A program made the translations under genes and the position numbers. 64,000 bases of DNA from Octopus sinensis (lineage: Eukaryota), in contig NC_043000.1 of NCBI RefSeq assembly GCF_006345805.1, positions 83,142,001 to 83,206,000 of the forward strand, in the 5' to 3' direction. The notes under the pieces were generated by a model. The model saw nothing but the letters and a program-made list of their open reading frames with translations. It was not told the DNA's origin and did not search any database. Below are positions 25,301-56,591 of this stretch, piece after piece; the stretch's first letter is position 1, and each line of letters begins with the position of its first letter.

Positions 25301-26947
25301 TATCCGGGGTTTGTTTTAAGCCAATTGGACAGATTTGTTCAAATTGGGCCCCGCACCAAGAGAGGACCCTGTACACATGCTCAAGCAGAGGATACTATGA
25401 TGATTTTTTAGTGAATTATTGTGGCTAATGGTGGAGCCTCAAGCTCTTAACACTTTTTGGCTGGGACTGGCAAACTACATGAAGCATAAAACATCAATCT
25501 TCAGCTTTTGTAGAGGAGATGGCCCCACTGATAATTTTCTAATTGAGCCAAGCACCACCTAGTGCCAGTCCTGAATATAGTACATAATGGATTGATAGTA
25601 TATGTGTGCAAAATTACATTTTAAGATTCTACTTTTTCAATCCATCTGAGTAACAGGTAAAATACAAATAAACACATTTACCTATTCATATTTAAATCAA
25701 AATATCTATATATTTTTAATTACATAGGTGTGGTTGAGTGTTTAAGAGGCTTGCTTTCCAACAACATAGTCTAGGGTTCAGTCCCACTGCATGATACCTT
25801 GAGCAAATATCTTCTATTGTAGGCTATGACCAATCAAAGCCTTCTGAACTGATTTGGCACACGAAAACTGATAGAAGTCCATGGTGTATGAGTGTGCACA
25901 TGTGTGTGTATGCAGGTGTATATTTGTGTGTGTGTGCGTGTGCATGCATACGTGTGTGTGCATGCGTACGTGCATGTGTACATATGCAGAAGGGAAAAAA
26001 GAGAGAAAATAGAAGGCTTCTGACAATGTAGAAAGTTTATATACATCCATATATATACATGTATATATATATATATATAATAGAAATATTAAAATTACTA
26101 AGTCTCTCTAAAGGAGATTACAGCAGCGTTACTGGATATTAATAGTTATCGCCATACTAATATGGCAGTCTATAAATATAAGACTAAAGCTGTCGCTGAT
26201 TAGCTCCAAGAGGCCATTGCCTCTAGCTAGCTATATGACGCATGAACCTGCGTCCATTACAACCTTCGAACAGGGGAGGTCAGCCGCTTCACCTTGCTAG
26301 TCAGACATCTGCAGACATGTTTCAGGGTTGTTGCCCTTTATCAATAAACGAACACCAGCTGTGAAGCAGTGGTGAGGGAGAAACACTGAAACATGTCTGC
26401 AGATGTCTGACTAGCAAGGTGAAGCAGCTGACCTCCCCTGTTCGAAGGTTGTAATGGACGCAGGCTCATGTGTCATATAGCTAGCTAGAGGCGATGGCCT
26501 CTTGGAGCTAATCAGCGACAGCTTTAGTCTTATATTTATAGACTGCCATATTAGTATGGCGATAACTATTAATATCCAGTAACGCTGCCGTAATCTCCTT
26601 TAGAGAGACTTGGTAATTTTAATATTTCTATTATTGAAAACAAGTGGATGTATTCCACTGTAACTAGGTAAATGAAATCTTCAAACAGACGGTCAGTAGC
26701 AACACCTGCGGGTCTGACTACGCTGCATTGATAAAGGGCAACAACCCTGAAACATGTCTGCAGATGTCTGACTAGCAAGGTGAAGCGGCTGACCTCCCCT
26801 GTTCGAAGGTTGTAATGGATGCAGGTTCATGTGTCATATAGCTAGCTAGAGGCGATGGCCTCTTGGAGCTAATCAGCGACAGCTTTAGTCTTATATTTGT
26901 AGACTGCCATATTAGTATGGCGATAACTATTAATTTATATATATATA

Positions 26948-27014
<67 letters not shown>

Positions 27015-27639
27015 ATATATAGATGTATATGTATACATGTATATGTATAACTGTATATGCATACATGTATATGTATACATGTGTATGTATAGATGTATTT
27101 CTATAGATATAGATGTATATGTATACATGTATGTGTAGATGTATATATATAGATGTACATGTAATGTGTACATTTATATATACACATATATACATGCATA
27201 CATATATACATGCATACACAGCCAGCCCCCACACACACATACATAGGTGCAGGTGTGGCTGTGTGGTAACAAACTTGGTTCCAAAACGCATGGTCCTCAG
27301 TTCAGTCCCACTGTGTGGTAAATTGGCATGAGTCTTCTGCTATAGCCTTAAACCAACCAAAGCCTTGCCAGTGGATTTTGTAGACAGAAACTGAAAGAAA
27401 TCAAATGTATGTATATGTATCTATATATGTAAGTCTATGTGTGTGTCTTTGTGTTTCTCCCTCACCACTGCTTCACAACTGGTGTTTGTTTATTTACATC
27501 CCCATAACTTACAGGTTTCACAAGAAGAAACTGATAGAATAAGTACCAGGCTTATCAAAATAAAAAAAACACTTGGCAGTGTCTCATATTTTTGTTTGCT
27601 CACTCAGTTGTATCTATCAATTTATCTTTGTGTGTGTGT

Positions 27640-27708
<69 letters not shown>

Positions 27709-28962
27709 ATATGGATTTTGTAGACAGGAACTGAAACAAATCATTTGTATATATATGTATGTATATATGTAAGTGTTTTATTTACATCCCCATAACTTAC
27801 TGGTTTCACAAGAACAAACTAATAGAATAAGTACCAGGCCTATATTTATAAAATTTCATCTTCTTACAAGTTACAAAGACCTCCTCCATGGGAACTTAAC
27901 ACCCACAATTTTGTCATTTTATCCAAGCAAAAATGAATACAGTTGTGCTCTTGGAAGCTGTAGGGTTACCTGAACATAAAAGATGAGCATTATTTGTAAT
28001 TCATTGGTACAACAGTGTAACAGTTTGCTTTGACATACATTTACATTGTGATTTCTGCAATGTGGTGCATAAATTGTCAAGTAAATGAGAGGCATCTTTG
28101 CCGCCACTGATTCAGTTGCAAAGTGTTGAGTAAAGTTATTTGATCACAGACCTCCTTTCAGTCTTTTAATTATCACTGGGTCACACATAGTTCCCAGATG
28201 GTAACATTGATTTCAAGGCCTTCCCAGATGAGTGACTGGTTATTCAAAAACATTTATAGATTGTAAATTTATTCTGTCCAGTTACATATCAGTATAGTGG
28301 TCATTTGCAAACTCCAGAGGTGACACTTTCCTTTCTCCTTAGCCCTCACGTCACACAGTTGTTAATGTTTATTTCAATTGGGTCATGCCCTTCCAATTGC
28401 TATAGATTTGTAATGCCTCTTATGGCTGTGCCTGTCAGCTGGATGGTGAGGAATCCTACATTGGGAGTGGTAATGACTAGGGTAGGGTAACTGACTACTT
28501 ATTGTGATCATTCATCTTTTGGTTTCCTGTAGCTTTGCTCTCTTTTACAAACCCAATGAACATATATTTCCTATTTCAAAGAAATTCAAACAATAGATAT
28601 AAGACCCAAGTTAAAAAGATTCTCAACAATTCAACTTCTCTTGTTGACATTAAGATGCCCACCCCCAACAGGGTCCTTAACTCTCACATTTTAGAGCTCC
28701 ATGACCTCCATTTTTCAGGAGCAAAATCTTTTTAACAGGTTCAATAAGACTGGAAATTTGGAATATGTGCATAAAAATCAGTAGTATGGGATACATGTGG
28801 CACAATTACAATTTTTTAGGGTGTGTAAAGAGGGAAATAACCTTTACCAGCAATTTTGATGAAATTCGAAACATAGATATTCTAGTTCATTACAGAAAAT
28901 ATAACAGAAAAGTCTAATTCTTCAATTGCATGTAACCCAGGCAACGCCGGGTATCTCTGCTA

Positions 28963-29008
<46 letters not shown>

Positions 29009-30434
29009 AAAAACCCACACACATACATATATAAACATAAGCATATATATATTAGGGGAAGTCAAATATTATCTGCACTTTCACCAAAACTTTCTTTAAG
29101 TTGGCTGCACTGCGTTCAGCACCCACATGCTAAAAGGTGGTATTCTACTGGTTATATAACTAACCAAGATTTGACCTTGATCGCTCCTGTTTTCTTTCTT
29201 GTGTTACAGAACATGGCTGCTCTTCTGGCAGTGTAAACTATGAAAGAACAGAGATCACTGATCCGATTTCTCTGGTCTGAAGGTGTTTCAGGGGCTGAAA
29301 TTCATTGTAGGCTTTCAGTACAATATGGGGACAAGTATGAAGAACAAAGAAGGAGAAGGACACCTATCAATTTCCACCACTGACATGAAGATTCAACAGG
29401 TTTGAGAGAGGGTTCTGGCAAACCAACTAGTGACCATCATTGAGGTGGCATGCTCTCTGCAAATTAGTCATGGTTCTGCATACAAAATCATTCATGACAA
29501 GCTTCACTTTCATAAAGTCATTGTGAGATGGGTGCCAAGTGAGCTTACTGAAGCACATATGCACAATTGTGTAGAGATCCATCAATGCTCACTTGGCCAT
29601 GACAATGATAAAGGTGAAGCTTTTTTGGAAAGAAATCAAATTGGAAGAGTTTGGAACAGAAATACCTGGAAGCGCCAGTGAAAAAGAAATTCAAAACTCA
29701 AACCATCCACTAAAAAAGTGATGCTAACTGGGTTTTTTGCAACACAAAAGGGCCTATACAGGAACATTACCTGGAAAAGGGGTTGACAGTCACTAGTGTA
29801 GGCTACAGTGAAATCCTGGTCAGCAAACTGAAACCAGCAATTTGCACCAAAGCAAGTGTTATTGTTGCATGACCTTGCACACCCACATATGGCCACCCAT
29901 ACCTTTGGAACTTTTGAAAAATTGGGTTTCACATTTCTGGAACACTCTACATACAGTCTAGACCCCACTCTTCACAATTATCACCTCTTTAAACCCCTAC
30001 AAAAAACATCGTGTTCAAGGCCATCAATTTGTTATGGATGAGGAAGTGCAGGAAGTGGTGCATAAATGGCTGTGCAACCAACCAAAAATCTTCTTTGATA
30101 GAATAAGTGAGCTTGTTGACTGCTGGAAGAAAGGTATTGAAAAGCAAGAAGACTATGTCGAAAAATGATATAATTGTTCAACCGCCTGCTTTTTTTCAGA
30201 AATTACAGAAACAAGAGTGCATGTAATTTTTTTACTTACATACATATGTATGTGAACATGTCTGTGTTTGTGTGTGTGTGGACATGGCACAAGCAACATA
30301 TATGTATATGTCAATGTCAAACAATGAGAATGATTGCTCCACACTGCAATCATAACTTTATTTGTGTATAAAGGCTACCATTGTTTTCATTGGTTTTCTT
30401 TCATGAAACCAAGGGTAGCCTTAATACACACACA

Positions 30435-30480
<46 letters not shown>

Positions 30481-30999
30481 CACACACACATACACACACA
30501 CACACATATGTATACATACATATATATATATATACCGGAGTAAACACATAAATGTGATGAACGGCAACGAGAAACTCAGAGTAACAGATTTTGTTGAATT
30601 TTCTGCTGCTTTAAATAAAGTATATATATATATACATATGTGTACATATATGGACATCCAAAACTTCATTTTCATGATCAACTCAAGTGATCTCTCATTT
30701 TATGTGGTGTCTCTCCCACTCACTTGAAGCCCCTTCCCTGGCTGTTAATCAGAAGGCATGGAAGCCCATGTGTGTTACTGGATTAGAACACTTTGGAACC
30801 AAATGTCGGAGACTGCATGAAAAGAGATGCAGTTGTTGTTCAGGGGCACTTTCAGTGCCTTCAATGTCACAGGATCTGCCTATTTCATGTTGGTCTTGTC
30901 AGTCACCTTGACAAACAACATGCTGGAAGTGGAGGAGGATGAATGTCTTCAATCAATGCTGCCATCACCTTTGATGAGCTATCATAAGCAAAGTAAGTT

Positions 31000-31030
<31 letters not shown>

Positions 31031-34000
31031 AAGAGAGAGAGAGAGAGACATTAAACATAACTGCATCTGGTGGTGAGATTCTACCTCAGAAGTTCTGGAG
31101 TTGTGGGGAACATGGAGTTATCCCTTAATGACCATTACTCCCAGGTCCATCCTGACCCAGAACAGTAGTACTTATTGGGGTCCCATCTGTGGGTTAAATA
31201 GATTTTCCAGACGTAGAGAATACTCCCATTATTTTTGACAAAACCATGGCGAAGGCAGATACTCTGACATTTAAAATAATGCTAGCCATCTTGCAATGCT
31301 TGTCACTGGAATCTACCATGACAACTGTGACAGTGGGAAAAGTGTTAGACAAGCTTTTGTCACTTAAATCTAATGACATACAGATGTCTCACTATTGAAT
31401 GTGAGATGGCTATCATTTGAGAAGATAGGGCAATCAACATGTGTGTTGTGGGGGGGGAGGTGTGAGTGTAATGGACATCTTTCAGCTTTTGTCCACCAAA
31501 TCTCACAAGGCTTTTTTCAGTGTGAAGCTATTGCAGAAGCCACTTGCCCAAAGTACCAAAATTCATATTAAAGTACTTTGCTTTAGAGATTTTTTTCTTT
31601 TAATGTATAACTTAAAGAATTAACTCACATTCACAAAATCCCTTTCACTAAACCTGTTCTTCAAGCGTATAAATCCTTTCATTTTTCGACGGGTTTCAAA
31701 GACAACTCGCTTAAAGATCATGATTGCCATCTAAAGAAGAGAAAATAATTCCATTATTTCACTCAGAAAAACAATTCGAATATTCTTTTCACAATCTGAT
31801 TATTTAATTTAATATATGAGAAAATGGTTTATGAAAATAGCTTGTTCATTGTACACAAATATTTTAATGTTTTCATCATTCACATCATTCTCTTTAACAT
31901 TAACACAACCACCATTTTTATTACCAATGGATTCTGTGGATATTCTATGTTTATAAATGATTAATTTCAATTTAAATGCATTAATAGATCTTTTTAAAAT
32001 TGCTCCATTCTGTTTAAATATTTTCATCATATCTTCAATTTCACCCCATAGATAAAGTTAATGCAGGTGTAATTTTTACACTTACATCTTTGAGATAAAG
32101 ATTTTGATTGTGTGATTCCATTCCTTCCAAATGAATTCCTTTATATTTTGATCATTCTCCTCCAATGTGTGTCTAGTCATAGTCATATTGTTAAGATAAA
32201 AGAAGGCACCACACAACTTTTCTTCTCTCACTACCCCATCCATAGCTTGTTGGAAGTCATCTACCATATTTGAGGTTCCAATGAAATCCTACACAACTGA
32301 TACAGATAGCCATTGGCTTCAAAAGCTGTATATTGTCTAGAATCCTTCAGCCACACCTAGTACCAGACACTTTTCATGTCAAAGGTGAAGAATGGTCTCT
32401 ATTTTGTAAGTTTGTTTATTAGCTCATCTATCAAAGGCAAGGGATAAGCATCTGACTTCATATATTGGTCGACTGTCACTTAAACTACTGGAACTCACCA
32501 TGAGGACATGCTTGCCCCAGTAACAACAAATGGCAAATATCCCTTGCAATGAAGTTTTCATCATCTTTACTAAATTACTTTGATTTGAGAGCAATTGGTT
32601 TTTCTCTTGGAGACAAGTTTGGAAAAGGGATGACTCTCTTACTTTTACTATGGCCAATGTACTGAAATCAGTAGCATTTACAGTTATGTCAGACAGGACT
32701 TCCCCATATTCAAATTTTACCCTCAGATATTGGTGCAGGAAAGCTTGGCCAAGTAACATATCAGCTCACAATTCCCTCAAATTACGGAGTCATGCAGCAA
32801 CAAGTAACTGGTTATTAAGGCTAACAGTTAGGTCCACAACAACATAACTCTTGGAACTAATATTTTAGGTTTTGTGAACCATAATGGTGTCTTTACTAGA
32901 GAGGGGAGTCTTTAATTTTAGTTCCTGCACAGCTTTCTTACTAACAGTGCCGCAGAATCCTAGACAGAATTCTAGACGCCACTTAACCTTTGTCCCTTCC
33001 TAATCAAAAAAGTCGCAGCTTGAATGAGTCCCTGTCATACATTCACTGGGTTAGTATGTGAGAAGTGACCACTGTCACCAGTAAGCTTAATAAGGTCTTG
33101 GGTTTGCATATGGGAGCATAATGTTCCTTCTTGAGGCATTTATTGCATTTATGCTGGACAGTTATCACATGAATGGTGAAAGAAACAACAAATGAAACAT
33201 TTCCTCTTAGTAATTTATAATCAGCATACAGAACTGGTTCATTAAGAACAACTGAAAGCTTATATGAATCTTTCTCATATACTTGTGATATCTATTGTTG
33301 ACCAGAGTTAACTACTGTCACTGTATTGACCTTTGGGGTTGTGTATATATTGTTACTGCGCTGGGCTATATCTATCACAGAGGCTTTATTATAAACAATC
33401 TTGAAGCCCAGTGCTTTATTTTCTAAAAGGTGCTGATGTATTGAAGTTGAGGTTATACCAGCAATGAATGTTACATGTTGCATAATAGTCGTACTGCTCT
33501 GTGCTATAATCCTGGTAATTTCAATTCCTCTATAGCTTCTCTAACTCTCTGGAAAATTAATCCAATGATTCATCTGGTAAGTATCTAGTAAAAACAATGG
33601 AGCCTACTCAGGCTAATAGAGTCCTATATTTATTTGGTATTTTGTCCCGATAGTCCTCTTCAATACAAATTGTAAAGATGGTTCACTGGTATTGGTGTTC
33701 TGTGAACTCAGGTCAATATCTAAAACTTAGGTTTCTACACCATCTTCATTTTTGAATTTGGGTTGAATAAATTGTAATGATAGCCAAAAGGTGGTTGCTT
33801 CTTCCCAAGCTTTATTCAACTCAGTTGTTTAGTTACAGTTCAGAATAGCATGGCACTTTATGTGCAATTACATAATACTAAGGTTGCCTCAACAACTTCT
33901 AGTTCTACCATTCAGTTCTGGTTGCATGTATGGAAACTTATATATATGAACCAATTAATTGTAACATTATATCATCATCATCATTTAGTGTGTATTTTCC

Positions 34001-34613: not shown

Positions 34614-34675
<62 letters not shown>

Positions 34676-36357: not shown

Positions 36358-36420
<63 letters not shown>

Positions 36421-45400: not shown

Positions 45401-47667
45401 TCTAGCTGCAGAAAATTTAAACAGATTTTAGCTCTATCCTCTCATATTTAAACTTTAATCCCAGTAGTGTCAACTTAGCTTTCATCATTCCAACACTGAG
45501 ACAATAAAAATCTATTAGTCAGTTCACCAACCATATTTTCCACCAAGAATTGTTTAGCCTTGTGCCAATATGAGAAATATTGTTATTCTTTTAACTATGT
45601 GCTTTCACTACACAACCAATAGCAGGTCAGTGTGAGGACATACAGAGTTTTGTTATGGTTCTGTATTTTCTATGGTATAATAAGTACTCTATGTTTCAAA
45701 TATGTGATATACCCAGTATTGCCTTTTGTTGTATGTTGTCTATACATGTAAGTGTGGGAGATTTGTTTATGTATTTATTTGCCCCCTTTTTAATCATTCC
45801 TAAGAAATCTAGTAGTATCATAAGGATGGCTTCTGTTTACAATTCCCTCATTTTGATTATCTCTGTTTGCAGATCTTTATATTTGAATAATTTCCATACT
45901 TCTTTAAAGAATCATTATCTGTTAGAACAAGTACAAAGACCAGTCTTTGATAACAGTACCATGTTGATTTTCTTGTCTGTGTGGATTGACATATTCAAGA
46001 GCATGGTTGCCTTATCATTCAGTGAAACATTTTCTGGTGTATGTTTATACTATCTTGTTTCAATCAATATTTCATACTATTAACACAGTTTCCTGTGTAT
46101 GGAAGCACCTCTCTGATTTGTCTGCTTGTATATTCTCATTTACAAGCCAGACAAAAACAATATAAATAATTAATAGTTTCTTTCAACTCTTTTGTTACCA
46201 TATATCTATAGAAATGCACTGTCTTCGTTTCCAGTAATTTAAAAAATAATGAAGCCTGGTTGTTATTAAGTTGGTATTAGGACTATAAATTAACATTAAA
46301 TTTTGATCGAGTAGATATAATTTAGATCACTTTTAAATAAATTTGTATCAGAGAAATAGGTGCAGTCTCAGGTGTGTCATTATCAAAACCTCATATATTC
46401 TACAGTTACTTAGTGTATTCTGCTTTACTATATATTTTTATGTTTTGGTAGCTTCTAATGAAAATGCATGGTCTTGTGTCACACTGAAAGGTCTTTCAGA
46501 GTCAGCTCTGAAACCCTGCTTTCATCAATCAGTATTGGGGTTTTTCTTTATACAACAAGTAATGAACTATAGCATCTTTGATTACAAGTTACCAATTGGC
46601 AATTATTTGTACTGGCAGGAAAATATCACTCCTTCAGAGTGAAAGACAGACTGTATAATGCTTGTGTGCAAAGTGTATTGCAACATGGTAGTGAGATATG
46701 GGTTTTAAATACAGAAGACATTTGAAAACCAGAAAGAAATGAAGTACATATAATTTGTTGGATGTGTAATGACAGTTTTTATGAACAGCAGAATACACAT
46801 AACTTTGGGAAGAAAAAACTGTGCATAAGAGGAATCAAATGCTGGTACAGTCATGTGATGCATACAAATGAAAACAGCTGTATTAAAAGGTGCTGAGCAC
46901 TCAAAGTAGACAGTGCCTGTAGAAGAGGAATACCTAGGAAGACGAGGAACAAATTTATTGAAGGGAAACTTAATAATGCAAGTTTCATGGCAATCTCACA
47001 AGCACTGATGCTACATAAACAAAAAATACTCAATACACTTGGTAATGTGGTTGGCATCTGGAAGAGCATCCAGCTGTAGAAAACATGCAAAAGTAGATAT
47101 TTGTGCATGATGCAGTCCTTGGACTTGTTGGATCTTGTCAACGTATGTCATGGAAAATGGACATTAAAAGATGATGATGATGATACTGCATCCTAATTTC
47201 TTTTGTAAAAATTAGAATTCACCTTGAGCAGACATTAAGAAATAGTAATAAAATCAAAAACTAACAAAAGTAAAAACTAAAATGCTTGAGAATATTTTCT
47301 TCAAAATTAACTTACTTCTTCATCTCTGAGGAAATTTCCAATTTTCAATAACTGCTTTAAAAAGTACACTTGTGGAAGTAATGGTTGGTACTTTTTTAAC
47401 ATTTCAAATAATGTTATTGACCTATAAAAGAAATTTTTATCATTATATTATATGAAGAAAGTTGGCAATAGAAAATATGGATGGAATGATATATATATAT
47501 ATATATATATACATATACATGCATGCATGCATGCATGCATGCATGCATACATACATACATACATACATACATACATACATACATACATACATACATACAT
47601 ACATACATACATACATACATACATACATACATACATACATACATACATACATACATACATACATACA

Positions 47668-47703
<36 letters not shown>

Positions 47704-48070
47704 CATACATACTTATATATGCAGGTGGTTTTCCTAGTGGTCAATTATTGCAAGGGTGATAATCATTTTTTCATAATACGAAGTGGGATTAAAAATTTGA
47801 ATTTAAAATTAAAGAATTTCAACCGTGTTTCGTGGTCTGCTACCACAACAGCTCCTTTATAGAATCCAGTTAGCTCAAGACATCATCAGGAGGAACTACT
47901 ATTTGCGGTTGGAGCCCTGGCTGCTATTTCTAGTGGGTCGAACGGCCTATTGTAGCCATTCCTCAATTGTTGTTGAATTTATTCATAGTCTCTGACTATT
48001 TCCTCTTTCTCACTAGACCGCTGGTGGCAAAATAATTTCTATTGAATTTTTTGCTACCCTAAATTGATAA

Positions 48071-48101
<31 letters not shown>

Positions 48102-48668
48102 ATATATACATATACATGCATGCATGCATGCATGCATGCATGCATACATACATACATACATACATACATACATACATACATACATCATACATACATACAT
48201 ACATACATACATACATACATACATACATACATACATACATACATACATACATACATACATACATACTACATACATACATACTACATACATACATACATAT
48301 ATATACATACATACTTATATATGCAGGTGGTTTTCCTAGTGGTCAATTATTGCAAGGGTGATAATCATTTTTTCATAATACGAAGTGGGATTAAAAATTT
48401 GAATTTAAAATTAAAGAATTTCAACCGTGTTTCGTGGTCTGCTACCACAACAGCTCCTTTATAGAATCCAGTTAGCTCAAGACATCATCAGGAGGAACTA
48501 CTATTTGCGGTTGGAGCCCTGGCTGCTATTTCTAGTGGGTCGAACGGCCTATTGTAGCCATTCCTCAATTGTTGTTGAATTTATTCATAGTCTCTGACTA
48601 TTTCCTCTTTCTCACTAGACCGCTGGTGGCAAAATAATTTCTATTGAATTTTTTGCTACCCTAAATTG

Positions 48669-48709
<41 letters not shown>

Positions 48710-49051: not shown

Positions 49052-49150
<99 letters not shown>

Positions 49151-52100
49151 TTAACGTCCGCTTTCCATGCTAGCATGGGTTGGACGGTTCAACTGGGGTC
49201 TGGGGAGCCCGAAAGCTGCACCAGTCCAGTCAGATCTGGCAGTGTTTCTACAGCTGGATGCCCTTCCTAACGCCAACCACTCCAAGAGTGTAGTGGGTGA
49301 TTTTATGTGCCACCGACACAGGTGCCAGACGAGGCTGGCAAACGGCCACGCTCGGATGGTGTTTTTTATGTGCCACCGACACAGGTGCCAGACGAGGCTG
49401 GCAGACAGCCACGCTCGGATGGTGTTTTTATGTGCCACCGACACAGGTGCCAGATGAGGCTGATATATATATATATATGTGTGTGTGTATATATATATAT
49501 ATATACCAGGTATGGTAGATAAGTTCAGTAAAATTTAGATTCAGATGAATATGGTACTTAAGTTAAAGGCACCAGAATTTAGTATGGTATTATCCTTATA
49601 ATTCAAAATGGGGTGATAATAATCAAAATAAGCAACAAGGATATACAGAGGTAATGCAGTATGATTGTTTCATGCGAATCCATTTAATTGAACAATGCAA
49701 ACATTACATCAATTTAAAATGTAGAGCAATCTTCTAGATTGCTCTAGAAGATTGCTCTACATTTTAAATTGATGTAATGTTTGCATTGTTCAATTAAATG
49801 GATTCGCATGAAACGATCGTACAACATTACCTCTGGATATCCTTGTTGCTTATTTTGATATACTTATATATACTTATATATCAGGGGCGTGCACTCTCAG
49901 CAATGCAAGGTATGCGCTGCATGCCTTCTTTGTTTCAAAGAAAATACGTCCAGTTGTTTTAGAAATATTGTCTCCACTTCGTACATCTGCTTTGATAAAT
50001 GCTTTTAGAAGATCGCATGATACACACTCCCTCTCTGTCTGTATTAGTTTGTCCTTCCTTCCTCTCTCTCTCTCTCTATCTTAGTGACTCGATAAATTTA
50101 TCGCTTGTCATGCGTTGGGAAGACAGCATGAGTCCCTTCTCTCTGTCTTTGATAGTTTGTCCCTTCTTCCTCTTTCTTTGTTTAAAAGATATACTACGAG
50201 GAATGGTCACCCCCTTCTCTCTCAGCGATTCGACAAATTCAGTTTGGCATGTCATGCTGTGCTAAAATCGCATTTCACGCCTCTCTGACTATTTTGACCG
50301 GAACAAGAGCCGTCCCATAATTCTTGTTTTAGCCAGCTGAAATGTTGGAATAGCCTTCGCATGTAAGTTTGAAATTTTTTATCCAAAACATCCGTTTGCA
50401 CTATCATATTTTTAAAAAGTTTTGAAAGCAAAAATATCTACATTATATTTCTTATTTCAGAAATAGCTAATTAATCTTAAATTAATTTAACAAAGGGTAT
50501 TTTTCCGTTTTGTTGAAATTGACTTAAAATTTACGCCGGCGCTTCCACGTGGGTCCTTAAATAAGAGCAGCCTTTTTCAAAATGAGTGAATTGTGTGCTA
50601 TAAACGATATTTTGAGAACTAGTTTTTCTAAAAGGGACTTCGATGGGAAAAAATTAATTATAAATCGCGGGAGACCAACACCGAATTTACCTAATTTGCG
50701 AAGCTACAACTAGAAATTCACGAGACAATTTCAGGTTAATTCGTATGAAAAGAAGAAATGGTTAACTGGAAGTGTTGCTCTTAATAAATTATTCTGTTGG
50801 CCGTGTTTACTTTTTGGCTTAGAAAAAAATGTTTGGAATGATAAAGGCTATGATGATATAAATAATTTACATATGGCTATGCTAAAGCACGAGCGTTCTC
50901 AAAGGCATATAAAATGTTTGATAGACCTTAAAATATTCGGGAATGTTCGCATAGACTTACAATTAGATGCACGTAAAAATCAAAACATACAACAGCATAA
51001 TGAGAAAGTTCGACGAAACAGATCCATTCTGCAACGATTGATCGATGTTGTTATTTTTTTAGGCCTCCAGGAATTATCGTTTCGGGGTCATTTTGAATCT
51101 GAAGGCTCTAATAATCGGGGAAATTATAAAGAACTCGTTTATTTGATCAGTAAGTATGACAAACAAATGGAAAGTCATTTAGATACAGCTTCTATCTTCA
51201 CTGGTCTGTCGAACAGAATTCAAAATGACTTGATCGAAGCAATTCATAAAGTTATGTTGAATGAGATGCAGAAGGAAATTGACCAAGCTAAGTTTGTTTC
51301 TATTCTTGTTGATGAGACATCTGATGTCTCAGCATCTTCACAACTGTCAACAGTTTTACGTTATGTTACAGAAGACTGTGTGACGAAAGAACGATTTATC
51401 GGTTTTAGTGATGTTAGTGCAGATCGATCTGCAAATGCTTTATCTGAACATGTTTTTAAATGCATTGAGACGTGGGAATGTGGAAACAAATTGATTGCGC
51501 AGACATATGATGGTGCCGCTACAATGGCAGGACAACTAAATGGGTTACAGGCAAAAGTAAGAAAGAAATATGAATGTGCGATCTTTATTCATTGTTGTGC
51601 CCATATCCTAAATTTAGTTCTTTCACAATCATGCTCTGCTATGAAAGAATGCAAGATATTTTTTTCTACAATAAACGGACTCGGTACATTTTTTACGAAA
51701 TCACCGAAAAGGACTAATGCATTAGATAATATTGTTAAAAAAAGATTTCCGAAAGCAACAGCAACTAGATGGAATTACTCCTCACGTCTTATTATTACCA
51801 CAAAGGAAAATTATAATTTCATAATCAGCCTTTTTGAACACATCATTGAAAATCCTGAAGCATAGGATGATATCACCATAAATTCAGCAATTGGATTCTT
51901 ACACACTTTAAAAGCTCCTGATTTCTTATTTTTGTTAGAGGTATTCAGTGACATTTTTTCTTTTACTGACGTCTTATTTAACATACTCCAGAGTAAAAGT
52001 CATGACATAGTGTATTGTAAACAGCAAATAGATAAAACTAGAACTGTACTCGAAAACAAACTTGATAATTTTTCAGTCTTTTATGATAGGTTAGGGGAAA

Positions 52101-53692
52101 AATATGGAGTCGATGCAGGAATCGGAATTCAGAGATCCAAGAATATATCTATTGATCCCCAACGACATTATAGAACGCTTTATAACAAAATTATAAGTAC
52201 AATAGTTGACCAAATAAAAGCACGATATTCATCCTTAGAAGAGTTTAAATTCATGGAACTTTTGAATTTCAACAAAGTTGATGAGTATTGCAAACAATTT
52301 CCTGTGGACTCTTTAGATTCTTTAAGAACAACTTATGGCAGATTTTTTGATGTAATACGATTACAAAGTGAGCTCAATGGGATGTATTCAATGAAAAATT
52401 TTAAAAAACCAAGTGTAAGTCATTTAATGAGTTACATTAACAGCACTGATCTTGTGGAAGCTATGCCAGAACTCTTCAATCTGTGCAAGTTGATTTTGAC
52501 AATTCCGTCTACGACTGCTTCTGTAGAGCGATCCTTTTCTGCATTAAGTAGAATTAAAACATACCAAAGAAATGCGACAGGAGAAAGAAGACTGTCTGGG
52601 TTAGCACTAATGTCAATTGAAAAAGATTTATTACAAGAATTGATGAAAAGAGAAGATTTCTATGAAAATGTGATAGATATATTTGCCCAGAAAGATCGAA
52701 GAATTGAATTAATTTATAAATGAGCTAAGTAACATTTTAAAACATTAAAAAAATATATATTAAAGAGCATATATTACAGGTTTTGCTAAGTGTTTGTTAT
52801 AACGTAAGGTTCGACCTTCTTACATCAGTATTGTTTCGCAGGAGAAATGTTTTGATTTCTTCGTGAAACCTAACCTACATAGATTTCCCTTTCTGTGCTG
52901 CTGGGTGTAGTCTATTTACGGCCGTAAATAAGTGTTTTGTTTCGCTTTCAATAAGTGTCTTGTTTCAATCTCAGAGATGTTGACTTCTGCCACAACAGTT
53001 TTGGGAGGCTTTTTACAATGTTGAATTTTCGCTGTCTTTCATTGTGTGCGTATTCATGTATATGCGTGTATTTTCAATGTTTGTGCGTGAGACGTAGTCC
53101 TTTAATGTACGGAGTTCAGTAAGTCTCAGAACAGTCAATAATTTTCCCGGAATTGACAAGTAGCATGATAAAGAACCTGACTTGTCTTCGAGAGCGTAAC
53201 GATCTAAAACCATGGCCATATAATGTAACTAAATGTGTTCTTTTAATTAAATCATTTCATTCAACTCAACCGATAGGTATAGGGTCTAATGCAGAATCGC
53301 ACCCCTTTGAAAAACGAATTTATGTGAAAATTTTTTTTCGGATTCCTACCTTTAACAGAGATTCTGAATATGCAAAAATATTGACAGAATCCAATTTCAT
53401 CTTTATTATATTTCACTTATGATTTTTAGACTTTTCTAAGGGAGAATGAGGATGGGAAAGTACTGACGTTTCGAAGAGCAAAGAATAATACAAACAATAC
53501 ACTTATTTCAGGATCATCTCTGCACAGCCATTTTTTATTCCCTGTTTATTCTGCATATTCAGAATCTCTTATATGTAAATCGTAGGAATACGAAAATGTT
53601 TTACTGAAAAATTGCCGGGGGGGGGGGGGAGCAATGAAATTAATTGCATGCCCAACGCCGGAAGTCACCGCACGCCACTGTTATATATATAT

Positions 53693-53766
<74 letters not shown>

Positions 53767-54755
53767 AATAATGAGGGAGATGAATTAATTTTAATTTCAA
53801 TATCAATTTAAATCCAGTAGTCTCGCATACAAAAAATCTGAGAAATCAGAGAAAATTCTAATATATGTGTATATTGGCAGGGCAAGGCTGCTAGGTAGTC
53901 GGCCATATGCTAGAAATAGATCATCAACGATCAATCTACAAAGAAAGTTCTCTAGAGGAAAAATTCGGTTAACACCAGAACCAAATTTGGCGGGCAGGAC
54001 AGATGAAAATTTATATAAAAAACAGAATTAATTGCATACCTCGGTTTCGGCCTTTAACAAAAGAATTACTTACATAATTCAAATGTCCGTGGCCTCATCA
54101 GTACAATCGTTCAGTGTAAATGCAATCTAAAAAACTAACCCCAGCTTTCTGTGCCAAAACAGACACGTGTTTAGTTTTACCGATTACATTAGGGATAAAA
54201 TTTCAAATGTCTTAGTTCTGGCGTGCTAAAAAATTCCTGAAGCAAAGAACTGCAGTAAATAATTCACTGCGGTTAGCGCTTGCTACTAGAGAACGTATTT
54301 ATTTCAATATTTAAATAATGAGGGAGATAAATTAATATTAATTTCAATATCAATTTAAATCCAGTAGTCTAGCATACAAAAAATCTGAGAAATCAGAGAA
54401 AATTCTAATATATGTGTATTATTTACTGCAGTTCTTCGCTTCAGGAATTTTTTAGCGCGCCGGAACTAAGACATTTGAAATTTTATCCCTAATGTAATCG
54501 GTAAAACTAAACACGTGTCTGTTTTGGCACAGAAAGCGGACATTTGAATTATGTAAGTAATTCTTTTGTTAAAGGCCAAAACCGAGGTATGCAATTAATT
54601 CTGTTTTTTATATAAATTTTCATCTGTCCTGCCCGCCAAATTTGGTTCTGGCATTCGCTGAATTTTTCCTCTAGAGAACTTTCTTTGTTGTTTGATTGTT
54701 GATGATCTATTTCTAGCATACGTCCGACTACCTAGCAGTCTTGCCCTGCCAATAT

Positions 54756-54807
<52 letters not shown>

Positions 54808-56591
54808 CTGCAGACCGTGATGTCTGGTGCCACACGATCTTCAACGCAGTCAGTAAGTTTGAGGAACAAAGAAGAGACACACTTAAAGACAAGAGATGCA
54901 GGAGGAAGGCGTGAGCCGCCTCTGACACCACATCATCAACATCATTGTTCGACCGTGGTCGAGACAATGGAATTTACCATGCTACGCCAGACTTCACAGT
55001 CCATTATGGCATTACGGAGGTCCTGTTGCTGGATGCCTGTATCCCTGACACCACACCAGATGTTACCTTCTTCTGTGGACACTACTCACGGACCTGCCTT
55101 TCCCATATTGGACTGGTCAGTCATGAGCGTGCATGCACGCGACGTGGACAGCCTTCCTGATCTTCATTCACAAAGCCAAGCCATATATATATTTACATTT
55201 ACATATTATTGTATTTGTCTCATTTTTTTCTGTTCATGTTCACCCATTATGTTTACTTATTTATAAACCAGCAACCTGTGTTGCTAACAGCCAAATCGAA
55301 CTATATTGTCAAAGTGTGTTGAAATCATGATAATATCTGGTCGAAAATTTATGAAGATTTGACCATGCTTGTGTCCATCGTGTACATGTGTGTGTGTATG
55401 TGTTTCTTTTTCTTGTTTGTCCCTTTGTCATCTCCTTTGTAACAAGAGGTGAAGATGAACTACAGGCTGACTAACAGAGAAAGTAAGTTTCATATGTGAC
55501 AGATGCATTGGAGCAGTAAGTACGTACTATGAGCACACTTGAAATGGATTCTCTACATTTTAAAAAATATATTCTCACTCTTGGTGTGACACAGTTTTGG
55601 GACCACTGCATCAGACTATGTGAATGACAATACATATCTAGGAACTCTTACCAGCAAGGCAATGTTATTACCATTTCGAATATGGCACATTTGGACTGAT
55701 AAACAAGTCATTTACTGTGTTTTGTCACAGAGAAAATTTATCACTTTTGACAATGGTGTAAATACACCTGTCTGTGACCAAAGAGGAAATAATTACTTTA
55801 AAATGCAGTATCTCACAGTTTGGAAAGGGGTCACTGCAAACTGATCTAGGTGTATTTACACCATTGTCAACAGTGATAAATTTTGTTCATGACAAAACGC
55901 AGTGAATGGCATGATTATTAGTCCAAACGTGCCACAGGCATATTTGAACTGATAATAACATTGCATTTATACCTATCACTGCTTAGGGCCCTAACTTCAT
56001 AATTTACTTATGGTGAGCAACTGCGTAGTATTCTCAGCCATTGTATGATGACTGAAATAGCATAAGACAACCACTCTCTTTCATCAGTTCATGGTGCCCT
56101 CTGCCCAGTGCCTGTCACTGAAGAGGAGATAGCTACTCCGAAATGCTACATCTCACAGTCTGGAAAGGGAGTGCTGTGAACTGATTTAGGTGTATTTATA
56201 CCATTATCGACAGCAATAAATTTTCTCTATAGTAAACACAGTGAATGGCTTGTTGGGGTGGACAGGTCTTCTTCTTCTTCTTCTTCTAAATAATAATAAT
56301 GATAATAAAGGCCGTATCCCAGTATGTCCACTGCTCAGTGACTAAAACTCAAGACGAATAAATAAATGAAAAAGGGACGAAAAAAACACTGAGGAAAGTA
56401 TGTACTTACGGTCGGCCACATACTGAAGGTACATCAGTCGGCTTATTCCGGAAAAGATTTAAAAAATCTTCCTTTTCTTTCTTAAAAGCTATAAAAACGG
56501 GGTTGATTTTGCAGCCCACAGCATCATAATAACTGCTTGGATACTGTCTATTGAGTAATTTTGCCGCTTTCAGTCTGATGTTAGTAGCCAT
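552..56591 (-). CDS. CFAP54: CFAP54 orthologue, 5' portion: 19 coding exons, 932 codons; gene continues beyond the left edge of the window
   Basis: Manually spliced exons have GT-AG sites and matching phases. Peptides are collinear with vertebrate CFAP54 as recalled: [32 protein letters not shown] vs SWPRTVTERLLDEMFDSTASQFLAVLEALSDS; [13 protein letters not shown]...EAFARRGL vs WRATLYTAVCQCC...EAFARRAL; [16 protein letters not shown] vs MAVMIFKRGVFESRRK; [11 protein letters not shown] vs VPPPPILLSRT. Confidence 0.93.
1595..1795 (-). mobile_element. tRNA-like SINE, family A; further copies near 900-1010, 10790-10880, 12160-12378, 16900-17100, 22230-22380, 35115-35320, 38350-38560, 42078-42293, 63020-63160
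   Basis: Shared core gagctggcagaat...ttagc...ttctgagttcaaat (B-box-like)...gactttgcctttcatcc repeated in both orientations. Confidence 0.85.
2932..3063 (-). CDS. CFAP54: CFAP54 exon 18 ([44 protein letters not shown])
   Basis: CAG acceptor, GTAAGC donor, 132 nt, phase 0 to 0; resembles NTLSKAIYLMQKA. Confidence 0.87.
3189..4040 (+). mobile_element. Decayed, internally deleted Tc1/mariner transposon
   Basis: Fragments IKFC-like [22 protein letters not shown] (HTH), [13 protein letters not shown] (WVPxxL-type motif), FADVEEVKE...FRQWK; degenerate TIRs. Confidence 0.85.
4035..4460 (-). mobile_element. tRNA-like SINE, family B; further copies near 14790-14955, 19790-20165, 20885-21030, 25725-25890, 27243-27570, 44945-45350
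   Basis: Shared core ggctgtgtggt...ggttcagtcccactg...cttgggcaagtgtctt...gaccaaagccttgtgagtggatttgg. Confidence 0.85.
4985..6865 (-). mobile_element. 5'-truncated RTE-like LINE: RT end, Cys-rich segment, 3'UTR with ~65-bp internal tandem repeats; interrupted by a SINE
   Basis: Minus strand [25 protein letters not shown]...[10 protein letters not shown], [17 protein letters not shown] motif. Related 3'UTR copies at about 4600-4975, 7205-7430, 33970-34200, 35700-36000, 47030-47185 and 49110-49460. Confidence 0.85.
6459..6626 (+). mobile_element. 5'-truncated family A SINE inserted into the LINE with 16-bp TSD
   Basis: GGTTTTTGCTAGGTTG at 6443-6458 and 6627-6642. Confidence 0.9.
9562..9632 (-). 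CDS. CFAP54: CFAP54 exon 17 ([23 protein letters not shown])
   Basis: CAG acceptor, GTTTGT donor, 71 nt, phase 1 to 0; restores frame between exons 16 and 18; low sequence conservation. Confidence 0.7.
10154..10331 (-). CDS. CFAP54: CFAP54 exon 16 (EVNNQVPE...[22 protein letters not shown])
   Basis: TAG acceptor, GTAAGA donor, 178 nt, phase 0 to 1; resembles FMMDLHLELIQAQHRIAVVL. Confidence 0.87.
11822..12081 (-). CDS. CFAP54: CFAP54 exon 15 ([12 protein letters not shown]...[23 protein letters not shown]...LTVK)
   Basis: CAG acceptor, GTAAGA donor, 260 nt, phase 1 to 0, open frame. Confidence 0.82.
13467..13614 (-). CDS. CFAP54: CFAP54 exon 14 ([14 protein letters not shown]...[12 protein letters not shown]...)
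   Basis: CAG acceptor, GTAATG donor, 148 nt, phase 0 to 1; EVTLRL motif conserved. Confidence 0.88.
14050..14720 (+). mobile_element. Highly decayed LINE endonuclease-region fragment
   Basis: CT-rich with a remnant resembling vi-GDxNaH (tcattctcagtgacctcaatgctcat); many stops. Confidence 0.45.
15104..15241 (-). CDS. CFAP54: CFAP54 exon 13 ([21 protein letters not shown]...FQKSENIAK)
   Basis: CAG acceptor, GTTTGT donor, 138 nt, phase 0 to 0; resembles IVVDTIMFLWQKCK. Confidence 0.87.
16109..16334 (+). mobile_element. Family A SINE with 18-bp TSD, inside a decayed minus-strand LINE (~15760-16860)
   Basis: GGTATTTCCTGCTTTGTA at 16091-16108 and 16335-16352. Confidence 0.9.
19316..19392 (-). 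CDS. CFAP54: CFAP54 exon 12 ([25 protein letters not shown])
   Basis: CAG acceptor, GTAAGT donor, 77 nt, phase 1 to 0; required to keep frame between exons 11 and 13. Confidence 0.8.
21129..21309 (-). CDS. CFAP54: CFAP54 exon 11 ([23 protein letters not shown]...[21 protein letters not shown])
   Basis: CAG acceptor, weak GTTAT donor, 181 nt, phase 0 to 1; LLIVME vs LLIAME. Confidence 0.82.
23165..23265 (-). CDS. CFAP54: CFAP54 exon 10 ([33 protein letters not shown])
   Basis: TAG acceptor, GTATT donor, 101 nt, phase 1 to 0; LAFCYEQW vs LAFTYEEW. Confidence 0.9.
23668..23769 (-). CDS. CFAP54: CFAP54 exon 9 ([33 protein letters not shown])
   Basis: TAG acceptor, GTATT donor, 102 nt, phase 1 to 1; SLLELAILG vs SLLELMIG. 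Confidence 0.85.
25036..25234 (-). CDS. CFAP54: CFAP54 exon 8 ([33 protein letters not shown]...)
   Basis: CAG acceptor, GTTAGT donor, 199 nt, phase 0 to 1. Confidence 0.93.
26077..26934. mobile_element. Retrozyme/Penelope-like non-coding element: 361-bp unit in ~1.5 tandem copies (26386-26934) plus inverted copy (26077-26344), flanked by (TA)n
   Basis: ctgaaacatgtctgcag recurs at 26386 and 26747; 26077-26325 is the near-perfect reverse complement of 26386-26634; hammerhead fold at the unit junction. Confidence 0.75.
26723..26763 (+). ncRNA. Minimal type I hammerhead ribozyme fold with variant core (TTGATAA for CTGATGA)
   Basis: CTGCA-TTGATAA-AGGG caacaa CCCT-GAA-ACATGT-C-TGCAG: stem I CTGCA/TGCAG, stem II AGGG/CCCT, palindromic stem III ACATGT, GUC site. 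Confidence 0.65.
28780..28963 (+). mobile_element. Helitron 3' terminus (5' extent unclear)
   Basis: Hairpin acccaggcaacgccgggt, then CTAG followed by T and (TA)n; same terminus as the element at 37750-38263. Confidence 0.7.
29050..30245 (+). mobile_element. Decayed mariner transposon
   Basis: [48 protein letters not shown] (YSPDLAP-like); degenerate TIRs. Confidence 0.85.
31629..31730 (-). CDS. CFAP54: CFAP54 exon 7 ([34 protein letters not shown])
   Basis: TAG acceptor, GTGAGT donor, 102 nt, phase 0 to 0. Confidence 0.92.
32150..33900 (-). mobile_element. Highly decayed LTR-retrotransposon-like (probably Gypsy gag/protease/RT) remnant
   Basis: Fragments [25 protein letters not shown] (YLDD region) and [10 protein letters not shown]; many stops. 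Confidence 0.5.
34777..35034 (-). CDS. CFAP54: CFAP54 exon 6 ([13 protein letters not shown]...[13 protein letters not shown]...AIRECTLK)
   Basis: TAG acceptor, GTATT donor, 258 nt, phase 0 to 0; strongly conserved segment. Confidence 0.93.
36771..36829 (-). CDS. CFAP54: CFAP54 exon 5 ([19 protein letters not shown])
   Basis: CAG acceptor, GTAAC donor, 59 nt, phase 1 to 0; resembles TIYIYTICRKLMVIGQSSK. Confidence 0.9.
37380..37740 (-). mobile_element. Non-LTR retrotransposon C-terminal restriction-like endonuclease fragment
   Basis: Frameshifted [10 protein letters not shown]...[10 protein letters not shown] pattern, typical of CRE-like elements. Confidence 0.5.
37750..38263 (+). mobile_element. 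Complete non-autonomous Helitron (514 bp)
   Basis: 5' TCTATATATATAAA, 3' hairpin cccaagcaacgccggg then CTAG; inserted between A and T, no TSD; retains CpGs. Confidence 0.85.
39773..40533 (-). mobile_element. Decayed hAT (Charlie/Buster-like) element
   Basis: TIR-like cagtggttcttaac at one end and tttaagaactg at the other; minus-strand remnant ending YPPSH*. Confidence 0.5.
41280..41930 (-). mobile_element. Decayed LINE 3' region (CR1/L2-like)
   Basis: LNLYSLQ...[12 protein letters not shown]...FKCSLDKVL motif in ORF 41304-41660. Confidence 0.7.
42456..42621 (-). CDS. CFAP54: CFAP54 exon 4 ([13 protein letters not shown]...[15 protein letters not shown])
   Basis: TAG acceptor with an in-frame alternative CAG 6 nt further in, GTAAGT donor, 166 nt, phase 0 to 1. 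Confidence 0.88.
43640..44400 (+). mobile_element. Decayed RTE-like LINE 3' part
   Basis: [37 protein letters not shown] motifs with frameshifts. Confidence 0.8.
44524..44644. repeat. 32-bp minisatellite, ~3.7 copies (atactagttacatctcactataagcagttaat)
   Basis: Direct head-to-tail copies with 1-2 mismatches and no spacers. Confidence 0.95.
44693..44833 (-). CDS. CFAP54: CFAP54 exon 3 ([12 protein letters not shown]...[17 protein letters not shown])
   Basis: CAG acceptor, GTAAGT donor, 141 nt, phase 0 to 0; resembles EYKLALLQCY...FFPKGFKDKTAGLT. Confidence 0.9.
47316..47421 (-). CDS. CFAP54: CFAP54 exon 2 ([35 protein letters not shown])
   Basis: TAG acceptor, GTAAGT donor, 106 nt, phase 2 to 0; resembles TSLFNIWTKYAPRLPADYYNEKLLKVGDSL. 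Confidence 0.9.
47488..48705. repeat. Tandem duplication, period ~602 bp: (AT)n(ATGC)n(ATAC)n microsatellite block plus ~370 bp unique segment
   Basis: 47700-48075 appears identical to 48302-48677. Confidence 0.95.
49622..49859. repeat. Near-perfect palindrome, ~117-bp arms, 4-nt loop (TTGC, 49739-49742)
   Basis: Arms are reverse complementary with only a few mismatches, located in the outer part. Confidence 0.95.
49882..53680 (+). mobile_element. Full-length hAT DNA transposon (3.8 kb)
   Basis: TIRs CAGGGGCGTGC and CAGTGGCGTGC (reverse complement of right end); perfect 8-bp TSD TTATATAT at 49874-49881 and 53681-53688; internal transposase gene. Confidence 0.95.
50582..52723 (+). pseudogene. 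hAT transposase (ZMYM1-like: TTF-type zinc finger, DUF4371, hATC dimerisation), 713 codons with two in-frame TAG stops (50711, 51863)
   Basis: Single frame with WL...LFCWPCLLF...HERSQRH, LVDETSD, YDGA, IHCCAH, ATRW and ASVERSFS; no frameshifts. Confidence 0.92.
53762..54760. mobile_element. Retrozyme/Penelope-like non-coding element: 547-bp unit in ~1.2 tandem copies plus internally deleted inverted copy (54419-54760), flanked by (TA)n
   Basis: atttaaataatgagggagat at 53762 and 54309; 54419-54760 is the reverse complement of ~53862-54263 lacking ~54090-54143. Confidence 0.78.
54031..54107 (-). ncRNA. Type I hammerhead ribozyme, intact core, extended stem II
   Basis: Minus strand ATTGTA-CTGATGA-GGCC...GGCC-GAA-ACC GA GGT-A-TGCAAT; stem I ATTGTA/TGCAAT; stem II extension GAATTAT-GTAA-GTAATTC; predicted cleavage after GUA (between 54037 and 54036). 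Confidence 0.82.
54806..55181 (+). mobile_element. LINE 3' end with C-terminal zinc-finger remnant, containing a nested 112-bp antisense LINE 3' fragment (54933-55044)
   Basis: [23 protein letters not shown]; the nested piece is flanked by an 11-bp TSD CTGACACCACA (54922-54932 and 55045-55055). Confidence 0.8.
55659..56252. mobile_element. Older retrozyme-like element: 340-bp unit in ~1.4 tandem copies plus inverted partial copy (55659-55769)
   Basis: aaatgc...atctcacag at 55801 and 56141; 55659-55769 is reverse complementary to 55848-55964; hammerhead folds at both junctions. Confidence 0.72.
56112..56158 (+). ncRNA. Minimal type I hammerhead ribozyme, intact core; decayed sister copy at 55772-55818
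   Basis: CTGTCA-CTGAAGA-GGAG atagcta CTCC-GAA-ATG cta CAT-C-TCACAG. There is one C-C mismatch in stem I, whereas the sister copy has a perfect CTGTGA/TCACAG stem. AUC cleavage site after 56152. Confidence 0.78.
56410..56591 (-). CDS. CFAP54: CFAP54 coding exon 1 ([50 protein letters not shown]...)
   Basis: ATG at 56591, GTAAGT donor, ends in phase 2 matching exon 2; [10 protein letters not shown] resembles CFAP54 NPLLASCEKE. Confidence 0.82.

What the first reader, a model, noticed from the sequence alone, without database searches (positions are those of the whole stretch)
26077..56252. Recurrent hammerhead-ribozyme retroelement system: three unrelated non-coding units with the same tandem-plus-inverted architecture
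Seen in sequence: three loci (26077-26934, 53762-54760, 55659-56252) with unit lengths of 361, 547 and 340 bp and no similarity to each other that I can see. Each has about 1.2-1.5 direct copies, an inverted partial copy and a type I hammerhead fold. Two are bounded by (TA)n. Established knowledge: Penelope-like elements carry minimal type I hammerheads in tandem or inverted pseudo-LTRs, and animal non-LTR retrozymes are short hammerhead-bearing tandem units that yield circular RNAs. Inference: these are several non-autonomous retrozyme families mobilised by Penelope-like elements. Three in 30 kb suggests a large, probably poorly catalogued population in this genome.
Basis: partly seen in the sequence, partly recalled or inferred. 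Interest (0 to 1): 0.8.

Follow-up and report, generated by a model that had tools for sequence, protein, structure and literature searches.

The report
Ribozyme-bearing hitchhikers of Penelope retrotransposons
Three unrelated short, non-coding repeats, each with a predicted self-cutting RNA motif and many copies across this animal genome, are likely passengers copied by Penelope-like retrotransposons: new members of a known kind (retrozymes), whose paired ends give a testable clue to how these enzymes start copying.

Summary
Confirmed. The three loci hold units of 361, 547 and 340 bp as 1.53, 1.2 and 1.42 direct units plus a head-to-head partial arm, each with one type I hammerhead motif. All three are dispersed families: exact ribozyme patterns occur 663, 74 and 58 times, controls 0. 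Older F1 subfamilies show compensatory stem changes. Units close on themselves, carry no ORF and reach 3.5 tandem copies. 3' ends fall at two fixed internal sites, mostly against (TA)n, the Penelope 'tail' signature. In head-to-head inserts the two arms use one site each: 15 of 16 (F1) and 10 of 10 (F2). The genome has intact RT+GIY-YIG elements, one sharing F1's U3-A8/ACAUGU ribozyme variant, but no pLTR homology was found. Verdict: non-autonomous, Penelope-mobilised non-LTR retrozymes, a kind already published (Cervera 2020; Li 2026). Cleavage, circles and expression are untested. The scan earlier noted a similar architecture with a tRNA instead of a ribozyme in another genome (e1-7810660).

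The parts
26077..26345 (-). F1 inverted arm, 0.75 unit; 3' end at unit position 253 against (TA)n; 5' end cuts off the ribozyme's 5' stem I strand
26346..26381 (.). 36-nt filler at the F1 inversion joint; 26343-26386 matches (95%) a dispersed repeat at 27451-27494, likely captured by a template switch
26382..26934 (+). F1 direct arm, 1.53 units of 361 bp (unit 26382-26742); 3' end at unit position 192-194 against (TA)n
26722..26764 (+). F1 type I hammerhead: U3-A8 core variant, 4-bp stem II, palindromic stem III ACAUGU; predicted cut after 26758
53762..54419 (-). F2 main arm, 1.2 units of 547 bp (unit 53762-54308); 3' end at 53762 against (TA)n
54031..54107 (-). F2 type I hammerhead: CUGAUGA core, stem II with 38-nt hairpin loop; predicted cut after 54037
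54414..54765 (+). F2 inverted arm, unit positions 42-448, with an internal deletion that removes the first half of its ribozyme; 3' end at the second site against (TA)n
55656..55769 (-). F3 inverted arm, 0.35 unit; 3' end at unit position 55 (family site A)
55769..56252 (+). F3 direct arm, 1.42 units of 340 bp (unit 55913-56252); old and decayed; ends off the family sites; decayed second ribozyme near 55772-55818
56112..56158 (+). F3 type I hammerhead: CUGAAGA core, one stem I mismatch in this copy; predicted cut after 56152

Best explanation
The three loci are copies of three separate, dispersed, non-coding repeat families (361, 547 and 340 bp units), each carrying a predicted type I hammerhead ribozyme, that are likely copied in trans by the reverse transcriptase-endonuclease of Penelope-like elements. 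Shown: copy number, self-closing unit, no ORF, tandem plus head-to-head layout, two fixed 3' ends, (TA)n flanks for F1 and F2, and stem covariation in F1. Inferred: tandem copies are transcribed and the ribozyme cuts, probably as a dimer through palindromic stem III. A more-than-unit template results; I favour a re-ligated circle (about 55%) over an uncut multimer (about 45%). The helper enzyme cuts both strands of AT-rich DNA and primes each strand at one of two internal RNA sites 155-275 nt past the cut site. It copies on through the ribozyme, stops at variable points, and the two cDNAs are joined head to head by microhomology.
For: Families: 129, 92 and 76 matches from 40 scored of 2417, 1771 and 923 candidates; exact ribozyme patterns 663, 74 and 58 vs 0 controls. 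Longest Met ORF in multimers 45, 32 and 36 aa. Arms over 2 units: F1 4 of 64, F2 1 of 40 (3.54 units). 3' ends in two site windows that cover 7-10% of the unit: 58 of 75, 39 of 41 and 37 of 61 arms. Head-to-head loci with both ends at those sites use one of each: F1 15 of 16 (p 0.0003), F2 10 of 10 (two look like duplicates), F3 2 of 2. This matches the two internal start sites, two-strand cutting and AT preference of a purified Penelope-like protein (PMC11167929). Covariation: 97% of cells paired, 5 of 12 pairs changed on both sides. No indel at the cut site in 52 of 52 F1 and 32 of 32 F2 contexts. Copies within one F1 insert share recurrent variants 0.46-0.47 vs 0.07 between loci. Helper candidates: 9 of 150 scored GIY-YIG matches lie in open frames of 762-883 aa, with RVT_1 + GIY-YIG in both ORF2s scanned. 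The commonest one ends at (TA)n and carries the same U3-A8 core and ACAUGU stem III as F1 (2319 matches vs 105 control).
Against: No nucleotide homology between any unit and 5 autonomous 3' regions beyond AT-rich or 12-nt matches, so no helper is identified. No RNA evidence was obtained. Isolated F1 and F3 ribozymes do not take the active fold as the minimum-energy structure, and F1 cofolds into another helix. Rfam does not recognise the motifs. F2 inverted arms share no more variants than unrelated loci (3 of 33 vs 0.13). One F1 insert (L161) has ribozymes of two subfamilies in one arm, which a single circle cannot give. In published tests only 1 of 9 Xenopus dimers cleaved, and ribozyme mutants did not affect insertion in vitro. 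F3 is not TA-bound and its ends are less clean.
Confidence: 0.82

Rival explanations
1. Same helper and same insertion chemistry, but the template is an uncut linear read-through transcript of tandem copies. The ribozyme acts elsewhere in the cycle (5' end processing) and no circle is involved.
For: Unprocessed RNA was the dominant substrate for a purified Penelope-like protein. 9 of 64 F1 arms start at unit positions 53-59, at 0.3-0.5, 1.5 and 2.5 units, which could be a transcription start. L161 is a two-subfamily chimera. Within-insert sharing is only about 0.47.
Against: Arms reach 2.58 (F1) and 3.54 (F2) units, and lengths must be regenerated despite 5' truncation. No column differs consistently between last and earlier passes in F1 (best p 0.01 of 307 columns). 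Circular folds are more stable than shuffles for F1 (z -5.2) and F2 (z -3.1), though the antisense strands score similarly. Related retrozymes are circles in coral, mussel and axolotl.
Confidence: 0.4
2. The loci are only 5'-truncated pseudo-LTR stubs of autonomous Penelope-like elements, not independent non-autonomous families.
For: The partial-tandem plus inverted layout and the tail are typical of autonomous elements. Only 150 of 5029 GIY-YIG candidates were scored, so most autonomous families were not compared.
Against: The unit end joins its own start in nearly every long copy, with no ORF between. PLE protein hits occur in 4 of 90 unit loci and, from coordinates and flanks, look like neighbouring insertions. 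F1 kept the same short unit and both ends through subfamilies 75-88% identical.
Confidence: 0.08
3. DNA-level satellites or fold-back rearrangements (or assembly errors) with chance ribozyme-like motifs.
For: The window does hold a near-identical 602-bp duplication in microsatellite. A few tandem copies are identical (L004, L051).
Against: Copies are dispersed, with few units each, fixed 3' ends and variable 5' ends. Stems covary. Motif counts are far above controls. The tandem joint occurs in contigs of 3 of 4 public runs laid.
Confidence: 0.03

Closest known systems
Non-LTR retrozymes of animals (Cervera & de la Pena 2020, PMC7229834; Li, Clavereau & Pollet 2026, bioRxiv 10.64898/2026.07.22.740005)
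   Same: Short non-coding tandem units with type I hammerheads, GC 35-42%, dispersed, co-occurring with Penelope-like elements.
   Different: Copies are mostly 1-2 units with a head-to-head arm. F1 has the U3-A8 variant that Cervera 2014 described in Penelope elements. F2 (547 bp) exceeds the 150-450 bp of the 2020 paper but lies within the 51-972 bp of the 2026 preprint. No pLTR homology was found here, unlike 21 annotated PLEs matched in Xenopus. Circles not shown.
EN+ Penelope-like elements and their pseudo-LTR hammerheads (Cervera 2014 PMC4209133; Craig 2021 PMC8557442; Arkhipova 2013 PMC3846280)
   Same: Partial tandems, inverted 5'-truncated arm, tail at one end only, (TA)n targets, palindromic stem III, U3-A8 core variant.
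   Different: No RT/GIY-YIG ORF. The tail is 59 nt (F1) and 99 nt (F2) against the usual 30-40 nt; F3 is about 35 nt.
Poseidon element PAc of the green anole (Frangieh 2024, PMC11167929)
   Same: Two internal reverse-transcription start sites downstream of a hammerhead; AT-rich target; both strands extended in vitro.
   Different: PAc is autonomous. The paper saw no difference in start site between strands and, in the parts I read, did not count pairing of sites within single inserts.
Non-autonomous Chlamys elements such as MRC1 (Craig 2021, passage seen)
   Same: ORF-less Penelope-type passengers with head-to-tail copies.
   Different: Those share 3' sequence with their helpers; none was found here.

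Membership tests
Non-LTR retrozyme | Type I hammerhead with conserved core and stems | tested here: met
   Core heptamer plus GAAA in 47 of 58 F1, 29 of 36 F2 and 12 of 36 F3 extracted regions (truncated arms included). Rfam does not detect them.
Non-LTR retrozyme | Short head-to-tail units, low GC, no ORF | tested here: met
   Units 361/547/340 bp; GC 0.42/0.35/0.40; longest Met ORF 45 aa.
Non-LTR retrozyme | Dispersed multi-copy family | tested here: met
Non-LTR retrozyme | Two or more consecutive units with complete ribozymes ('active' criterion of Li 2026) | tested here: inconclusive
   Not met by the three window copies (one motif each). Met by other F1 and F2 loci, e.g. three F2 motifs 546 bp apart on contig C10927 and F1 loci L017, L019, L023. 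Not seen for F3.
Non-LTR retrozyme | Self-cleavage and circular RNA in vivo | not testable with these tools
   Only contigs of runs not on record as RNA were available.
Penelope-like element (autonomous) | RT plus GIY-YIG ORF within the unit | tested here: not met
Penelope-mobilised element | Partial tandem with head-to-head 5'-truncated arm | tested here: met
   Head-to-head in 27 of 46, 11 of 30 and 11 of 39 loci.
Penelope-mobilised element | Two internal 3' ends ('tail') and AT-rich target | tested here: met
   TA flanks for F1 and F2; only 1 of 42 F3 arm ends is TA-flanked.
Penelope-mobilised element | Terminal homology to an autonomous helper | tested here: not met
   5 autonomous 3' regions and 50 GIY-YIG loci compared. 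Only the ribozyme core and stem III are shared with family A. Most autonomous families were not sampled.
Penelope-mobilised element | Target-site duplication | not tested
   Cannot be read inside (TA)n; not attempted for F3.

The most novel reading that the evidence does not exclude
The one-of-each rule records a fixed geometry: a dimeric Penelope enzyme on one RNP primes the two strands of a (TA)n break at two different preset RNA sites, which would explain both the tail and the head-to-head inserts. F1 would be a long-lived, self-sustaining circular RNA parasite that kept its helper's rare U3-A8/ACAUGU ribozyme, possibly to cleave as a heterodimer with helper RNA.
Probability: 0.3. Interest if true: 0.62.

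Novelty: new member of a known kind. Interest (0 to 1): 0.4.

Why it matters
The class is known, so the families themselves are catalogue additions, in a genome that may hold of the order of 10^4 such motifs that Rfam misses. Their use is as short, young, ORF-free substrates with hundreds of independent insertion records. They make the unsolved Penelope insertion mechanism countable and testable: the tail, the inverted arm, circle versus linear template, and the role of the ribozyme.

Tried and rejected
Rfam on the whole window and on each motif: no hammerhead at a useful score; window hits were microsatellite-driven miRNA matches. RNA search with one F1 unit: no RNA holder listed. 19 of 24 rows hold part of it, most of them only guessed to be RNA, all as contigs. 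Laying 4 of them covered all 28 bins and showed the tandem joint in 3 of 4, but cannot show strand, ends, circles or expression; not used as evidence on expression. Search for pLTR homology: negative; an 11-nt match of an old F1 copy to family A (E 0.55) was set aside as chance. tblastn of PLE proteins on the window: no hit. Pile-up of 5' ends at the cut site: 2 of 64 in F1 (positions 13-20) and 4 of 40 within 10 nt in F2; not convincing. Position-specific variants: none in F1; F2 hits at unit positions 3-6 are an artefact of alignment into the TA flank. Conservation profile across old F1 segments: not used, because loci were picked on the core pattern. Homolog search of the helper ORF: 572 relatives, no usable clade or host name. 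No tRNA in the window. Earlier notes on this genome: none.

Full report
OBSERVATION. The three loci exist as described. F1: inverted arm 26077-26345, a 36-nt filler, then 1.53 units of 361 bp at 26382-26934. F2 (ribozyme on the minus strand): 1.2 units of 547 bp at 54419-53762 and an inverted arm 54414-54765 with an internal deletion. F3: inverted arm 55656-55769 and 1.42 units of 340 bp at 55769-56252. In ribozyme sense all three are head-to-head. The units are unrelated. My descriptor found 4 motifs in the window. Three are these; the fourth (17100-17174) is at chance level. Tight criteria give 3 against 1 hit in 100 shuffles. A stricter descriptor keeps only F1 and F2. Rfam misses all three.

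FAMILIES. The genome (G000, 2.72 Gb) is an animal's. That it is an octopus-like mollusc is my recalled guess from size and repeat content and was not tested. DNA searches scored 40 of 2417, 1771 and 923 candidates and gave 129, 92 and 76 matches. Candidates are not copy numbers. Exact ribozyme patterns count 663, 74 and 58, with 0 in reversed controls. Top F1 and F2 copies lie 2.6% from the column majority and F3 15%, so F1 and F2 are young and F3 is old. In 60 unselected 10-kb stretches at round coordinates of contigs C1-C20, F1 fragments occur in 2, F2 in 2, F3 in 0 and Penelope-like ORF pieces in 5. A tight descriptor finds 4 motifs there (in 2 stretches) against 1 in 10 shuffles. That suggests of the order of 10^4 motifs genome-wide, with a wide error. 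In 198 fetched loci, 84 motifs fell into 13 clusters, 9 of them outside F1-F3.

THE RIBOZYMES. F1 has the U3-A8 core, described for Penelope elements by Cervera 2014, and a palindromic stem III. Older F1 subfamilies (75-88% identical) keep the unit and its ends. In 15 motifs that I picked from loci found by core patterns, 97% of cells pair and 5 of 12 pairs change on both sides, in stems I and II and in the middle of the palindrome. These 27 cells reflect a few subfamily events, and core invariance in this set is circular. F2 shows one two-sided stem I change in a subfamily; F3 includes many copies with C at position 4. Folding is mixed. F2 forms stems I and II alone and a dimeric hammerhead on cofolding; F1 and F3 prefer other folds. 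Cleavage is predicted, not shown.

INSERTION SIGNATURE. 3' ends fall in two windows per family: F1 unit positions about 194 and 253 (58 of 75 arms), F2 about 448 and 547 (39 of 41), F3 about 55 and 90 (37 of 61); the windows cover 7-10% of each unit. F1 and F2 ends run into (TA)n; F3 ends do not. The sites lie about 155-275 nt past the predicted cut, and long arms read through the cut with no indel in 52 of 52 F1 and 32 of 32 F2 contexts. The template was therefore uncut or re-ligated. Among head-to-head loci with both ends at these sites, one arm uses each site in 15 of 16 F1, 10 of 10 F2 (L035 and L037 look like duplicates) and 2 of 2 F3 loci. The other 11, 1 and 9 head-to-head loci have an end off-site and were not counted. 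Most inversion joints overlap by a few bases. Loci are top hits, so long arms are over-represented. Within F1 inserts, recurrent variants agree at 123 of 264 sites between passes and 110 of 240 between arms, against 0.07 between loci. In F2 the figures are 46 of 134, 3 of 33 and 0.13, so the between-arm signal is absent there.

HELPERS. 9 of 150 scored GIY-YIG matches lie in open frames of 762-883 aa. Two ORFs scanned carry RVT_1 (just under the cut-off) and GIY-YIG. A CxxxxCxxC linker precedes the nuclease, which by Craig 2021 points to Neptune or Nematis; no tree was made. Family A ends at (TA)n about 65 nt after a ribozyme with the same U3-A8 core and ACAUGU stem III as F1 but a different stem II. 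Beyond that, no homology links any unit to 5 autonomous 3' regions. PLE protein hits occur in 4 of 90 unit loci and appear to be neighbours in shared TA tracts. The helper is thus inferred from the footprint, not identified.

MECHANISM. Most likely these are non-autonomous RNAs that borrow a Penelope RT-endonuclease. The enzyme cuts both strands of AT-rich DNA, primes each at one of two internal sites, copies more than one unit, and the truncated cDNAs join head to head. Frangieh 2024 showed two internal start sites, cutting and extension of both strands, AT preference and a predicted dimer for an anole element. It also found the ribozyme dispensable for insertion in vitro. For a circle: arms up to 3.54 units, seamless read-through, stable folds (z -5.2 and -3.1; antisense similar; F3 -1.1). 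Against: 9 of 64 F1 arms start at positions 53-59, and L161 is a two-subfamily chimera. I put the circle at about 55%.

WHAT IS KNOWN. Seen: Li, Clavereau and Pollet 2026 preprint, parts 1-3 of 5 (vertebrates, insects and a coral; its supplements were not seen); Cervera 2014, parts 1-2 of 4; Cervera 2020, passages and Discussion ('octopus' and 'cephalopod' 0 times); Craig 2021, passages; Frangieh 2024, parts 1-2 of 4; Arkhipova 2013, passages; a 2026 Octopus vulgaris repeat annotation, passages ('ribozyme' 0 times; its library was not seen and may hold these units under other labels). Searches listed no paper on cephalopod retrozymes or on within-insert pairing of the two sites; the library lacks most subscription papers and Repbase. 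That the tail is often at one end only is in print. One earlier scan note (e1-7810660) describes a similar TA-targeted tandem unit with a tRNA; I did not check it.

VERDICT. A real feature, correctly read: new members of a known kind. Interest 0.4, mostly for the one-of-each rule and the ready test system.

Noticed in passing
window 47902-48117 and 48504-48705: 5'-truncated 3' end (83%) of a fourth hammerhead family, ending at (TA)n. A fuller head-to-head copy with a unit of about 490 bp and two ribozymes lies in L200:1-1485.
   Followed up: partly
window 47489-48705: Direct duplication at spacing about 600 bp, 98.6% identical, in (TACA)n/(TA)n; recent duplication or assembly error.
   Followed up: no
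window 49622-49859: Palindrome of two 117-nt arms (96%) of another dispersed repeat found in 7 of 258 loci, often in TA tracts; possibly another head-to-head Penelope-type stub.
   Followed up: partly
window 49882-53680: hAT DNA transposon with terminal inverted repeats and an 8-bp AT-rich target duplication; transposase (DUF4371, Dimer_Tnp_hAT) split by a stop at 51863-51865. F2 sits in the TA tract at its right end.
   Followed up: partly
window 58140-59177: Broken RT and RNase H pieces of an LTR-type retrotransposon.
   Followed up: no
L161:1853-1899 and 1492-1538 (minus strand): One F1 arm carries ribozymes of two subfamilies 361 bp apart: template switch or mixed multimer.
   Followed up: partly
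L125:1174-4874, L129, L127, L128: Autonomous Penelope-like family A has an upstream ORF of up to 479 aa without a clear Pfam match, overlapping the 781-aa RT/GIY-YIG ORF; several copies are intact.
   Followed up: partly
L172, L176, L177, L180-L182, L184: Another U3-A8 ribozyme family with stem III ACUAGU, in L182 downstream of a Penelope-like ORF piece; the pattern has 1004 matches vs 87 control, shared with old F1 subfamilies.
   Followed up: partly
L127:6264-7375, L123:6286-7228, L128:845-931, L208, L249: Further hammerhead families with long hairpin loop 2, some in head-to-head pairs.
   Followed up: no
F3 loci L062-L090, L187-L198: Many F3 copies read CCGA instead of CUGA in the core (U4C), recurring across loci as if a subfamily trait.
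   Followed up: no
P0029, P0038, P0059, P0073: Penelope-like proteins filed under bacterial symbionts of bivalves; probably host contamination of metagenome bins (inference).
   Followed up: no
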